Virus genome (UHGV): UHGV-2175977
Source of the DNA: a virus
DNA: 17,361 bases
Reading direction: 5' to 3' (one strand)
The notes beneath the pieces are model-generated. The model saw only the letters and a list, made by a program, of their open reading frames with translations, was not told the DNA's origin and searched no databases. A program made the position numbers and the translations under genes. Numbering within the stretch: position 1 is the stretch's first letter; the number at the start of each line of letters is the position of its first letter. Shown here piece after piece: positions 12,200-13,252 of the stretch.

Positions 12200-13252
12200 G
12201 TGAGGGTATTAGTGACACCTGAAATTGCTCACCGTCTGGGGATTGTACTTTTCAGACCCGGTCCTGATGCGATGCCTTTGTTTATGCAGGGGCGTGTGCT
12301 GGTGGAGCCTGAACCGAAAAGCATGCGCGGTCTGCCGTCCGGAGTCGTTCCTGCCGTTCGCCAGCCGTTGGCGGAAGATAAATCATTACTCCCATTTTTC
12401 AGCAATGAGCGTGTGATTCGTGCTGCCGGCGGCGCTGGTGCACTGTCTGACTGGCTGTTGCGTCATGTCAAATCCTGCCAGTGGCCTCATGGTGACTATC
12501 ATCACAGTGAAACCGTCATACATCGTTACGGTACCGGAGCGATGGTGTTGTGCTGGCACTGCGACAACCAGCTGCGTGACCAGACATCCGAATCACTTGA
12601 GCAACTTGCTCAACAAAACCAGGCAGAATGGATGATTGACGTCATACGCCATGCAATGAACGGCACGCAGGAGCGGGAATTATCGCTGGCTGAATTATGC
12701 TGGTGGGCGGTGTGCAATCAGGTGACGGATGCACTACCCGAGACAGTATTGAGTCGTTCGATGGGATTACCTGCGGAAAAAATACGCTCTGTATACCGCG
12801 AAAGCGACATCATACCAGGAGAAAAGACCGCCACCAGCATACTGAAACAGCGCACAAAAAATCTTGTGCTGCCGACCCACCAGCAACAGAACCGACCACA
12901 GGAAAATAAGGTGGTCACCCTTACCGTTGATCCCGATTCTCCGGCTCAGTATCTCCGGCGCCAGAAACCACAACGGGAAGAGATGCCCGTATACACGCGC
13001 TGGGTAAAAACGCAGAAATGCATGACGTGTGGCAATCAGGCAGATGATCCGCATCACATCATTGGTCATGGACTGGGAGGGATGGGAACAAAGGCTGACG
13101 ATTTATTTGTTATTCCGCTGTGTCGTAAATGCCACAACGAACTGCATGCCGGGGTAAAAGAATTTGAAGAAAAACACGGCAGCCAGCTGTTGTTGTTGAT
13201 TTGTTTTTTAATGCACGCGAAAAATTCGGGCGTCCTGAAGTGGAATGCATAA
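12200..13252 (+). CDS. DUF968-like protein with C-terminal HNH-like Cys/His motif
   Basis: ORF track starts at 12104; GTG at 12200 preceded by GGAGG. C-terminal CMTCGNQADDPHHIIGHGLGG...PLCRKCHNELHAG resembles an HNH/zinc-finger nuclease motif. Confidence 0.6.
   Translation: MRVLVTPEIAHRLGIVLFRPGPDAMPLFMQGRVLVEPEPKSMRGLPSGVVPAVRQPLAEDKSLLPFFSNERVIRAAGGAGALSDWLLRHVKSCQWPHGDYHHSETVIHRYGTGAMVLCWHCDNQLRDQTSESLEQLAQQNQAEWMIDVIRHAMNGTQERELSLAELCWWAVCNQVTDALPETVLSRSMGLPAEKIRSVYRESDIIPGEKTATSILKQRTKNLVLPTHQQQNRPQENKVVTLTVDPDSPAQYLRRQKPQREEMPVYTRWVKTQKCMTCGNQADDPHHIIGHGLGGMGTKADDLFVIPLCRKCHNELHAGVKEFEEKHGSQLLLLICFLMHAKNSGVLKWNA

What the first reader, a model, noticed from the sequence alone, without database searches (positions are those of the whole stretch)
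12200..13252. DUF968-like protein with HNH-like motif immediately upstream of rusA and Q
The C-terminal Cys/His cluster (CMTCGN...DDPHHIIGH...CRKCHNELHAG) looks like an HNH nuclease or zinc finger in a large protein that is conserved next to Q in lambdoid prophages but has no established role. The gene most likely starts at GTG 12200 rather than the ORF-track start.
Basis: partly seen in the sequence, partly recalled or inferred. Interest (0 to 1): 0.35.

Follow-up and report, generated by a model that had tools for sequence, protein, structure and literature searches.

The report
YdfU-family phage HNH nuclease gene
This is an ordinary, already catalogued prophage gene (YdfU/DUF968 family) whose C-terminal end is a zinc-stabilised HNH-type DNA-cutting domain with an intact active site; it sits next to a Holliday-junction resolvase gene and the late-gene switch, and no experiment has yet shown what it does.

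Summary
Window 12200..13252 (+) encodes a 350-aa protein starting at GTG 12200. It is identical to RefSeq WP_072837491.1 ('DUF968 domain-containing protein'). It matches Pfam DUF968 (2.2e-64) and HNHc_6 (above the curated cut-off), and PHROG_96 'HNH endonuclease' over its full length.

The C-terminal ~95 residues are a His-Me (HNH) finger. The zinc ligands are C274, C277, C308 and C311. The catalytic set is H285/H286, D301, H312 and H316, conserved in 49-50 of 50 divergent relatives.

The C-terminal domain is homologous to E. coli YbcO (PDB 3g27) and to the HNH domain of S. aureus phage PhiNM1 Gp16, a RecA-stimulated nickase characterised in 2026.

The gene lies directly 5' of the late activator in every context examined: three different Q families, and lpa in P1. 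RusA is often adjacent.

The HNH assignment and the RusA/Q neighbourhood were already published in 2014 and 2017. About 80% of complete E. coli genomes carry a copy.

Two modest additions:
- An N-terminal 160-aa domain is confidently modelled, has no Pfam or PDB match, and carries its own invariant zinc site.
- The P1 PdcB clade keeps this N-terminal domain but has lost the catalytic histidines.

Nuclease activity and substrate remain untested. Verdict: real, correctly interpreted, already known, low interest.

The parts
12191..12195 (+). Shine-Dalgarno GGAGG, 4 nt before the GTG start
   Evidence: Read directly from the sequence.
12200..13252 (+). YdfU/DUF968-family gene, 350 aa, GTG start and TAA stop
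   Evidence: RefSeq CDS with the same coordinates. Pfam DUF968 2.2e-64 and HNHc_6 1.6e-7. PHROG_96 3.8e-164.
12200..12673 (+). N-terminal domain (residues 1-158): a small beta-sheet, helices, a beta-hairpin plus helix at 105-125, and a long helix at 131-158. No family could be assigned.
   Evidence: The AlphaFold model of this domain alone has pLDDT 91.2 and pTM 0.70. None of 29 homologous N-domains has a Pfam hit. There is no significant Foldseek hit in PDB or BFVD. PHROG_11007 (unknown function) covers residues 2-135.
12476..12568 (+). Putative N-domain zinc site: C93-x7-[C/H]101-x16-C118-x2-[C/H]121-D122-N123
   Evidence: C93 and C118 are invariant. Positions 101 and 121 are always C or H. 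Q94, W119 and D122 are conserved in at least 90% of 29-30 relatives of 21-52% identity. Zinc binding is inferred, not shown.
12674..12952 (+). Middle region (residues 159-251): the conserved LSxxELCWWAV helix, then a partly disordered linker. It corresponds to the first half of the Pfam DUF968 model.
   Evidence: Pfam DUF968 positions 2-93 match here. pLDDT falls to 50-70 over residues 190-240, and residues 227-236 are below 50.
12953..13237 (+). C-terminal His-Me (HNH) finger domain, residues 252-346
   Evidence: Pfam DUF968 positions 94-169 and HNHc_6 3.5e-8, with weak HNH and HNH_5 hits. hhalign against YbcO gives 82.6% and against PhiNM1 Gp16 gives 95.4%. The model shows beta-beta-alpha at 283-317.
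13019..13153 (+). HNH core. Zinc ligands: C274, C277, C308, C311. Catalytic and metal residues: H285, H286, D301, H312, H316.
   Evidence: In 50 representatives clustered at 50% identity or less, K256, C274, H286, D301 and P306 are conserved 50/50, and H285, H312 and H316 are conserved 49/50. C277, C308 and C311 are lost together in one sub-clade.
11920..12198 (+). 92-aa upstream ORF (PHROG_1212, unknown function) whose stop lies 1 nt before the DUF968 start. It may be a co-inherited partner.
   Evidence: RefSeq CDS. PHROG_1212 1.9e-35. A 70%-identical copy occupies the same position before a 60%-identical DUF968 gene.
13253..13618 (+). rusA, a Holliday-junction resolvase gene that starts directly after the DUF968 stop codon
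   Evidence: Pfam RusA 4e-16. 42% identical to E. coli K-12 RusA.
13615..14283 (+). Q antiterminator gene (late-gene activator), overlapping rusA by ATGA
   Evidence: Pfam Phage_antiter_Q 1.1e-90. RefSeq CDS.

Best explanation
The gene encodes a three-part protein of the YdfU/DUF968 family from a lambdoid prophage. It is transcribed as one of the last genes of the early-right (nin) operon and is tightly packed with a 92-aa ORF, rusA and Q.

The C-terminal ~95 residues form a zinc-stabilised His-Me (HNH) finger:
- C274, C277, C308 and C311 hold a structural zinc.
- H286 is the general base at the end of beta1.
- H285, H312 and H316 (an H-x3-H on the helix) hold the catalytic divalent metal.
- D301 takes the place of the 'N' of the HNH motif.

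The most likely activity is metal-dependent nicking or cleavage of DNA during early lytic growth. The likely targets are recombination or replication intermediates (D-loops, forks, RecA-bound DNA), which would complement the adjacent four-way-junction resolvase RusA. This would be analogous to lambda Rap/NinG, P1 Ref and PhiNM1 Gp16.

The N-terminal 160-residue domain has its own invariant Cys/His site. I infer that it gives substrate or partner recognition.

Shown here: family membership, fold, residue conservation and synteny. Inferred: catalysis, substrate, partner and the timing of expression.
For: Family and fold:
- Pfam DUF968 at 217 bits and HNHc_6 above the gathering score. The HNH-type hits are confined to residues 267-350.
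- PHROG_96 'HNH endonuclease' matches over the full length.
- AlphaFold gives pLDDT 87.2 with a beta-beta-alpha element at 283-317.
- The top Foldseek PDB hits, though weak, are all HNH proteins: Cas5-HNH, IscB, ScoMcrA and Cap5.

Active site under selection:
- H286, D301, C274, K256 and P306 are conserved 50/50, and H285, H312 and H316 are conserved 49/50, in representatives at 50% identity or less.
- The zinc cysteines are lost together in one sub-clade.

Homology to studied proteins:
- YbcO (PDB 3g27): hhalign probability 82.6%, E 9.7e-6. It is also the best PDB sequence hit.
- PhiNM1 Gp16: hhalign probability 95.4%, E 1.9e-8. The residue correspondence is C145/C148/H157/C181/H184/H185/H189 in Gp16 to C274/C277/H286/C308/C311/H312/H316 here.
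- Gp16 itself scores above the cut-off for both HNHc_6 and DUF968. It is an experimentally shown, RecA-stimulated nickase needed for phage DNA replication (PMC12817073).

Context:
- RusA is adjacent or within two genes in the window, mEp390, Hafnia phage yong2, SfV, Edwardsiella phage EPP-1 and a Yersinia prophage.
- The short paralogue gene ybcO sits in the same ybcO-rusA-(ylcG)-Q arrangement in DLP12.
- No NinG/Rap gene appears in any of these nin regions.
- Two published in-silico studies reach the same reading (PMC5714182; PMC4118853).
Against: - No member of the enterobacterial YdfU clade has been assayed.
- The P1 PdcB clade (26% identical over the full length) lacks H285, H286, H312 and H316 yet keeps the rest of the protein. 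P1 pdcB is dispensable (PMC10695390 and PMC10067587). So nuclease chemistry is not essential to every family member.
- The Gp16 analogy covers only the HNH domain. Gp16's NinB/Orf-like N-domain is absent here.
- RusA is missing from several contexts, so the RusA partnership is not obligate.
- Foldseek E-values for the full model are not significant.
Confidence: 0.5

Rival explanations
1. It is a host-takeover or inter-element conflict nuclease. Made early after induction, it would nick or degrade the host chromosome or competing DNA (superinfecting phages, satellites) to stop host replication and free resources. It would not process the phage's own recombination intermediates.
For: - The only characterised relative, PhiNM1 Gp16, inhibits host growth, condenses the nucleoid and suppresses host replication (PMC12817073).
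- The active site is intact.
- The gene is extremely widespread and multi-copy in E. coli: 4338 of 5426 complete genomes, with up to 9 copies per genome.
Against: - There is no hit to any PADLOC defence model.
- No immunity or inhibitor gene is evident, unless the 92-aa upstream ORF serves as one.
- The recurrent linkage to RusA and to methyltransferase and replication genes points to DNA metabolism.
- Gp16's effect is itself RecA-linked, so this rival overlaps the main explanation.
Confidence: 0.2
2. It is a non-catalytic zinc-finger DNA- or protein-binding factor that modulates the early-to-late switch. The HNH finger would serve only as a binding module.
For: - The gene is always directly 5' of the late activator. 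This holds for three different Q families (Pfam PF06323, PF06530, PF03589) and for lpa in P1.
- The PdcB clade has lost the catalytic histidines but keeps both zinc sites.
- In Gp16, zinc-finger mutants abolished the phenotype, while the H157A (general base) mutant did not.
Against: - The catalytic residues are essentially invariant in the lambdoid clade (49-50 of 50), which is hard to explain without catalysis.
- Adjacency to Q is expected for any last gene of the nin module.
- Records that label the gene 'antitermination protein Q' are mis-annotations.
Confidence: 0.12
3. It is a selfish free-standing HNH homing endonuclease that persists at a mosaic junction of lambdoid genomes by cutting genomes that lack it.
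For: - Free-standing HNH genes in phages are often homing endonucleases (general knowledge).
- Nucleotide identity across E. coli copies is mosaic. Nucleotides 94-745 are widely about 85% identical, while the 3' third often drops out of the match.
- Many deletion chimeras with neighbouring genes exist.
Against: - The three-domain architecture is conserved over its full length from lambdoid phages to Vibrio phages and P1, at 26-50% identity and in a fixed position. This looks like vertical retention of a functional module.
- The protein has none of the DNA-binding modules typical of homing endonucleases (NUMOD, IENR1, AP2), and Pfam finds none.
Confidence: 0.08
4. It is a terminase-associated HNH nuclease needed for cos cleavage and packaging, like HK97 gp74.
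For: The HNH fold.
Against: - The gene lies in the early region. In the identical RefSeq locus, Q, tRNAs, the lysis cassette and about 7 kb of DNA separate it from the terminase genes.
- The prophage has a lambda-like packaging and head module: small and large terminase subunits, head-tail joining protein, portal, S49 peptidase and decoration protein.
- A separate, degraded 'HNH endonuclease' fragment sits just upstream of the terminase genes.
Confidence: 0.03

Closest known systems
E. coli Qin prophage YdfU and the Pfam DUF968 (PF06147) family; PHROG_96
   Same: - Same family: 217 bits to PF06147, and a full-length match to PHROG_96.
- K-12 ydfU matches at about 85% nucleotide identity over nucleotides 94-745.
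- Same position next to Q.
- Already classed as His-Me finger group 7, with RusA and Q as neighbours (PMC5714182).
   Different: Nothing essential. This is one allele, about 85% identical in amino acids to the commonest E. coli cluster, with rusA placed between it and Q.
E. coli DLP12 YbcO (DUF1364, PDB 3g27)
   Same: - Homologous His-Me finger core: hhalign 82.6%, E 9.7e-6, 47 columns.
- Identical synteny, ybcO-rusA-(ylcG)-quuD.
- Predicted to be a nuclease from its structure (PMC4999995).
   Different: YbcO is 96 aa and consists of the finger alone. The window protein adds a 160-aa N-terminal domain and a roughly 90-aa middle region.
Staphylococcus phage PhiNM1 Gp16 (Pfam HNHc_6, PF16784), a RecA-stimulated nickase
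   Same: - Homologous HNH domain with the same ligand and catalytic pattern (hhalign 95.4%).
- Gp16 also passes the DUF968 cut-off.
- It is an early gene in a replication and recombination module that also contains RusA.
   Different: - Gp16's N-domain is NinB/Orf-like. The window protein's N-domain is unrelated to Gp16 residues 1-120 and to the Orf-family protein YbcN.
- RecA dependence is untested here.
- Gp16 comes from a Gram-positive siphovirus.
Phage P1 PdcB
   Same: Full-length homologue (26% identity over 99% of the length) with the same three-part layout and the same N-domain Cys/His motif. Its gene sits directly before the late activator gene lpa.
   Different: PdcB has lost the HH pair and the H-x3-H residues, so it is probably catalytically dead. 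It is shown to be non-essential.
Lambda Rap/NinG (PF05766) and P1 Ref (PF16786, PDB 3PLW)
   Same: Both are phage-encoded His-Me finger nucleases that act on recombination intermediates. NinG occupies the equivalent nin-region slot before Q (PMC4118853 and PMC5714182).
   Different: The window protein has no Pfam hit to NinG or RecA_dep_nuc, even at E<=10 on the isolated domain. These are analogues and superfamily relatives, not the same family.

Membership tests
DUF968 (Pfam PF06147) / YdfU family | Score above the curated Pfam gathering threshold, across the model | tested here: met
   217.1 bits against a cut-off of 27.8. Model positions 1-168 of 171 match residues 160-341.
His-Me finger (HNH, beta-beta-alpha-Me) superfamily | Beta-hairpin followed by an alpha-helix that carries the motif | tested here: met
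   AlphaFold model (pLDDT 87) with DSSP strands at 283-286 and 304-307 and a helix at 309-317. The top Foldseek hits are HNH proteins, but with non-significant E-values.
His-Me finger (HNH, beta-beta-alpha-Me) superfamily | Conserved general-base His at the end of beta1, and metal-ligand His/Asn on the helix | tested here: met
   H286 is conserved 50/50. H285, H312 and H316 are conserved 49/50. D301 (in place of the central Asn) is conserved 50/50.
His-Me finger (HNH, beta-beta-alpha-Me) superfamily | Profile match to a curated HNH-type family | tested here: met
   HNHc_6 (PF16784) scores 31.6 bits against a cut-off of 26.6. PF01844 HNH and PF14279 HNH_5 score only E~0.007, below their cut-offs.
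His-Me finger (HNH, beta-beta-alpha-Me) superfamily | Metal-dependent phosphodiester cleavage | not testable with these tools
   This needs a biochemical assay. No assay of any enterobacterial member was found.
His-Me group 7 (YbcO/DUF1364 plus DUF968; Jablonska 2017) | Detectable homology to YbcO (PDB 3g27) | tested here: met
   hhalign gives probability 82.6% and E 9.7e-6. HMMER against PDB gives only E 0.078-0.41.
Orf-HNH fusion nucleases (HNHc_6; PhiNM1 Gp16, PhiETA Orf20) | HNHc_6-type C-terminal nuclease domain | tested here: met
   hhalign of the C-domain profile against Gp16 gives 95.4%, E 1.9e-8, 65 columns.
Orf-HNH fusion nucleases (HNHc_6; PhiNM1 Gp16, PhiETA Orf20) | N-terminal NinB/Orf-like (RAGNYA) domain | tested here: not met
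   - The N-domain profile does not align to Gp16 residues 1-120.
- The full profile against the Orf-family protein YbcN gives probability 0.09%.
- No PDB sequence or fold hit to lambda Orf (1PC6) was found.
- HNHc_6 matches only model positions 120-184 of 204.
Orf-HNH fusion nucleases (HNHc_6; PhiNM1 Gp16, PhiETA Orf20) | RecA interaction, or stimulation of nicking by RecA | not testable with these tools
   Experimental property (PMC12817073).
Lambda NinG/Rap (PF05766) | Profile match to PF05766 | tested here: not met
   No hit at E<=0.01 on the whole protein or at E<=10 on the isolated C-domain.
P1 Ref (RecA_dep_nuc, PF16786) | Profile match to PF16786 | tested here: not met
   The window protein has no hit. 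One family representative, P0191, reaches only E 3e-4, at 21.3 bits against a cut-off of 26.9.
Terminase-associated HNH (HK97 gp74 type) | Gene adjacent to the terminase genes at the start of the late operon | tested here: not met
   The gene is in the early nin region. Q, tRNAs and the lysis genes separate it from the terminase small-subunit gene.
Anti-phage defence systems (PADLOC) | Match to a defence-system protein model | tested here: not met
   No PADLOC hit for the protein or for three of its neighbours.

The most novel reading that the evidence does not exclude
The conserved core of the YdfU/PdcB family may be not the HNH finger but the undescribed N-terminal ~160-residue domain with its invariant C-x7-[C/H]-x16-C-W-x-[C/H]-D-N zinc site. 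This domain has no Pfam, PDB or BFVD counterpart and is retained even in the catalytically dead P1 PdcB. It could be a new kind of DNA-structure or host-protein (for example RecA, SSB or replisome) recognition module. In lambdoid phages it would direct an HNH nickase to a specific target at the transition from early replication to late growth. In P1 it would act without cutting.
Probability: 0.15. Interest if true: 0.5.

Novelty: already known. Interest (0 to 1): 0.2.

Why it matters
A YdfU-family gene is present in about 80% of complete E. coli genomes, often in several copies per genome, including Shiga-toxin phages. Yet its enterobacterial clade has never been assayed. If it is a RecA-linked or branch-specific nickase working beside RusA, it would be a common, unstudied contributor to lambdoid phage replication and recombination, and so to the mosaic evolution of toxin-converting phages. 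The recent PhiNM1 Gp16 work supplies a ready experimental template. For this scan, though, the finding adds little: the gene, its HNH assignment and its neighbourhood are already in the databases and the literature.

Tried and rejected
1. N-domain as a degenerate duplicate of the C-terminal His-Me finger.
- In favour: the N-domain has a beta-beta-alpha element at 105-125 with Cys/His ligands at the beta2-helix junction ('VLCWHCDNQL' against 'PLCRKCHNEL'). Its top Foldseek hits, though weak, are HNH proteins (ScoMcrA, Cap5).
- Against: profile-profile comparison is not significant (hhalign probability 1.6%, P=0.032). In a column-shuffle control, 43 of 300 shuffles scored at least as high.
- Left as unproven.

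2. Orf/NinB-like domain, as described for the Gram-positive DUF968/HNHc_6 proteins. Not found. A long hhalign alignment of residues 153-252 to Gp16 residues 42-130 has near-zero per-column confidence outside the HNH part.

3. Domain fusions as functional clues.
- Representatives that join the N-domain to tail-fibre, tip or portal domains, or the C-domain to fragments of Dam, MT-A70, IstB or LexA, carry truncated partner domains.
- The C-domain partners are the kinds of genes found upstream in other nin regions. I read all of these fusions as deletion chimeras in decaying prophages, not as real architectures.

4. Defence-system membership. No PADLOC hits.

5. The 92-aa upstream ORF as a PdcA homologue. 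No similarity.

6. Searches that found nothing significant:
- Full-length profile against PDB sequences: no hits.
- Foldseek of the full-length model against PDB.
- Foldseek of the N-domain model against PDB and BFVD.

7. Antisense ORFs inside the gene (12767..13069 and 13110..13424, minus strand) and internal terminator-like hairpins. No support; treated as chance.
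Full report
**1. The observation**

The six-frame ORF list gives a 382-codon ORF at 12104..13252 (+) that starts at TTG. Four lines of evidence place the real start at GTG 12200:
- GGAGG lies at 12191-12195.
- The upstream ORF ends at TAA 12196-12198, one base before the GTG.
- RefSeq annotates exactly these coordinates in a 100%-identical E. coli chromosome (NZ_CP033635) as WP_072837491.1, 'DUF968 domain-containing protein', 350 aa.
- Thirty full-length relatives of 26-85% identity all begin at this methionine.

The quoted Cys/His strings are present as C274-x2-C277, D282-D-P-H285-H286 and C308-x2-C311-H312-x3-H316. rusA starts at 13253, directly after the TAA stop. Q (13615..14283) overlaps the rusA stop by ATGA.

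**2. What the protein is**

Profile searches identify the family:
- Pfam gives DUF968 (PF06147) at 2.2e-64 over residues 160-341, and HNHc_6 (PF16784) at 31.6 bits, above its 26.6-bit cut-off, over residues 266-326.
- PHROGs gives a full-length match (residues 1-347 to model positions 1-334 of 334, 3.8e-164) to PHROG_96, labelled 'HNH endonuclease'.
- NCBIfam and PADLOC give nothing.

Splitting the protein into thirds shows where the signal lies:
- Residues 1-160 match no Pfam family, even at E<=10.
- Residues 161-266 match the first half of the DUF968 model.
- Residues 267-350 carry the second half of DUF968 plus HNHc_6, with weak HNH and HNH_5 hits.

An AlphaFold2 model built on 30 diverse homologues has mean pLDDT 87.2 and pTM 0.56, and it shows three parts:
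- An N-terminal domain (1-158) with a small sheet, helices, a beta-hairpin plus helix at 105-125, and a long helix at 131-158.
- A partly disordered middle region.
- A C-terminal beta283-286 / beta304-307 / alpha309-317 unit followed by two helices. This is the beta-beta-alpha layout of His-Me fingers.

**3. The active site is conserved**

I searched 1.84 billion representative proteins (clustered at 50% identity). The search found 2145 relatives at E<=1e-3 and 84 at E<=1e-30. In the 50 listed representatives that cover the whole C-domain:
- K256, C274, H286, D301 and P306 are conserved 50/50.
- H285, H312 and H316 are conserved 49/50.
- Position 311 is C or H in 41 of 50.

C277, C308 and C311 are lost together in one sub-clade ('VVTG...RTDEH'). 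That is the behaviour expected of a structural zinc site.

The pattern is CxxC...HH...D...CxxC/H-H...H. It matches, position for position, the residues mutated in PhiNM1 Gp16: C145, C148, H157, C181, H184, H185 and H189.

**4. Relatives with known structure or function**

- YbcO of prophage DLP12 (PDB 3g27) is the best PDB sequence hit. HMMER gives E 0.41 with the single sequence and 0.078 with a C-domain profile. hhalign gives probability 82.6% and E 9.7e-6 over the 47-column core.
- YbcO was predicted to be a nuclease and was linked by FFAS to P1 Ref and to PF16784 (PMC4999995).
- PhiNM1 Gp16 scores 389 bits on HNHc_6 and 29.1 bits on DUF968 (cut-off 27.8). It aligns to the C-domain profile with probability 95.4% and E 1.9e-8.
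- Gp16 has been shown experimentally to be an early-expressed nickase. It binds dsDNA, is stimulated by RecA, inhibits host replication, and is needed for phage DNA replication (PMC12817073).
- Its N-terminal NinB/Orf-like domain has no counterpart in the window protein. The kinship is therefore limited to the nuclease module.
- Lambda NinG/Rap and P1 Ref are functional analogues in the same superfamily, but they do not match by profile.

**5. Genomic context**

The window is a lambdoid prophage. In the identical RefSeq locus the gene order is: integrase, excisionase, exonuclease, kil, Rha, repressor-like genes, YdaT, replication genes, Ead/Ea22, a minus-strand ParDE pair, the 92-aa ORF, DUF968, RusA, Q, a membrane ORF, two tRNAs, the lysis genes and lambda-like terminase and head genes.

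In every context I examined, the YdfU-family gene is the last or second-to-last gene before the late activator:

| Element | Gene order around the DUF968 gene |
|---|---|
| mEp390 | RusA, DUF968, Q |
| Hafnia phage yong2 | Dam, RusA, DUF968, Q |
| SfV | RusA, orf44, DUF968, Q |
| Yersinia prophage | Dam, RusA, Rha/Ant, DUF968, Q (PF06530) |
| Metagenomic prophage | MT-A70, DUF968, Q (PF06323) |
| Widespread E. coli prophage (source name: O25b:H4-ST131) | hok, rem, 92-aa ORF, DUF968, Q (PF06530) |
| Edwardsiella phage EPP-1 | RusA, two genes, DUF968, then a 178-aa unannotated ORF |
| P1 | phd, doc, pdcA, pdcB, lpa |

DLP12 has ybcO-rusA-ylcG-quuD, so the short finger-only paralogue occupies the same slot. 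None of these regions carries NinG. These neighbours, and the hypothesis of a recombination role, were already stated by Jablonska et al. in 2017. The HNH zinc-finger extension of DUF968 was noted by Curtis et al. in 2014.

**6. Prevalence**

Of 5426 complete E. coli genomes, 4338 carry a match of at least 80% nucleotide identity, with up to 9 places per genome. Sixteen records carry this exact allele. Full-length protein homologues occur in 175 phage records, from Escherichia, Shigella, Salmonella, Klebsiella, Yersinia, Hafnia, Edwardsiella, Providencia and Vibrio phages, Stx2 phages, and P1/P7/D6.

**7. What goes slightly beyond the published picture**

(a) The N-terminal domain.
- Modelled alone, it has pLDDT 91.2 and pTM 0.70.
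- It has an invariant C93 and C118. Positions 101 and 121 are always C or H. Q94, W119 and D122 are nearly invariant. Together this gives a four-ligand site of the form C-x7-[C/H]-x16-C-W-x-[C/H]-D-N, at a beta-hairpin/helix junction.
- None of 29 homologous N-domains has a Pfam hit.
- Foldseek finds nothing significant in PDB or BFVD. The best hits are ScoMcrA (E=1, TM 0.31) and Cap5, both HNH proteins.
- Whether it is a decayed second His-Me finger could not be established (hhalign P=0.032; 43 of 300 shuffles scored at least as high).

(b) The P1 PdcB clade.
- It comprises P1 PdcB and representatives P0190, P0216 and P0180.
- It keeps the N-domain motif, both CxxC pairs, and the D and P of the C-domain.
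- It has replaced H285, H286, H312 and H316.
- P1 pdcB is dispensable for plaque formation.

**8. Mechanism**

The best-supported reading is a zinc-stabilised, divalent-metal-dependent DNA nickase or endonuclease. It would be made from the early-right operon and would act on recombination or replication intermediates, beside RusA and in the functional slot that NinG/Rap fills in lambda. It may work with RecA, as Gp16 and Ref do.

My confidence differs by step:
- High (about 0.95) that this is a DUF968 His-Me finger protein with an intact active site.
- Moderate (about 0.7) that it cleaves DNA.
- Lower (about 0.4) for the specific substrate and the RusA/RecA connection.
- Overall, 0.5 for the statement as a whole.

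The rivals are a host-takeover or conflict nuclease, a non-catalytic regulator of the late switch, a homing endonuclease, and a packaging HNH. They are listed with their evidence. The packaging role is effectively excluded by gene position.

**9. Verdict**

It is already known: the identical protein is in RefSeq, the family sits in Pfam and PHROGs with an HNH label, and the His-Me assignment and neighbourhood are published. Its biochemical function remains open and is now easy to test by following the Gp16 study. Interest is low, at 0.2.

Noticed in passing
window 5575-5662 (-) and 5687-5763 (-): Rfam finds a C4 antisense RNA (RF01695, 73.8 bits) and isrK (RF01394, 67.2 bits). Both lie within or next to the Rha-family regulator gene at 4966-5814 (-). 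This may be a P1/P7-type antisense immunity element in a lambdoid prophage.
   Followed up: no
window 11920-12198 (+): A 92-aa ORF (PHROG_1212, no Pfam) ends 1 nt before the DUF968 start. A 70%-identical copy sits in the same position before a 60%-identical DUF968 gene in a widespread E. coli prophage (one source names it O25b:H4-ST131). It may be a co-inherited partner or inhibitor. It is not similar to P1 PdcA.
   Followed up: partly
window 11222-11847 (-): A ParE-toxin / ParD-antitoxin pair lies on the opposite strand, inside the nin region just upstream of the DUF968 operon segment.
   Followed up: no
window 15370-15445 and 15447-15523 (+): Two tRNA genes lie downstream of Q. ARAGORN calls the first tRNA-Met (CAT), while RefSeq calls it tRNA-Ile, which suggests an ileX-type lysidine tRNA. 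The second is tRNA-Arg (TCT). This is the arrangement known from Stx phages.
   Followed up: no
window 14534-15247 (+): A 237-aa ORF, apparently membrane-associated, lies between Q and the tRNAs in a low-GC stretch (about 0.40, against about 0.50 elsewhere). It matches PHROG_1521 (unknown function) and has no Pfam or PADLOC hit. It may be a moron or cargo gene expressed from the late promoter.
   Followed up: no
proteins P0334 and P0336 (607 aa), on E. coli contigs including one of 4.68 Mb: These are single ORFs that join DUF968/HNHc_6 to an Antiterm (PF03589) Q domain. They are either read-through fusions of the adjacent genes or annotation artefacts.
   Followed up: no
window 12200-13252, compared across E. 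coli genomes and phages: Nucleotide similarity is mosaic. Nucleotides 94-745 match thousands of genomes at about 85% identity, while the first ~93 nt and the HNH-encoding 3' third often drop out of megablast matches. This suggests recombination breakpoints inside the gene.
   Followed up: partly
L001 19034-19135 (NZ_CP033635; about 5.8 kb 3' of the DUF968 gene, beyond the right end of the window): A truncated 'HNH endonuclease' pseudogene lies between the lysis genes and the terminase small-subunit gene. It is probably a remnant of a packaging-type HNH, distinct from the DUF968 gene.
   Followed up: no
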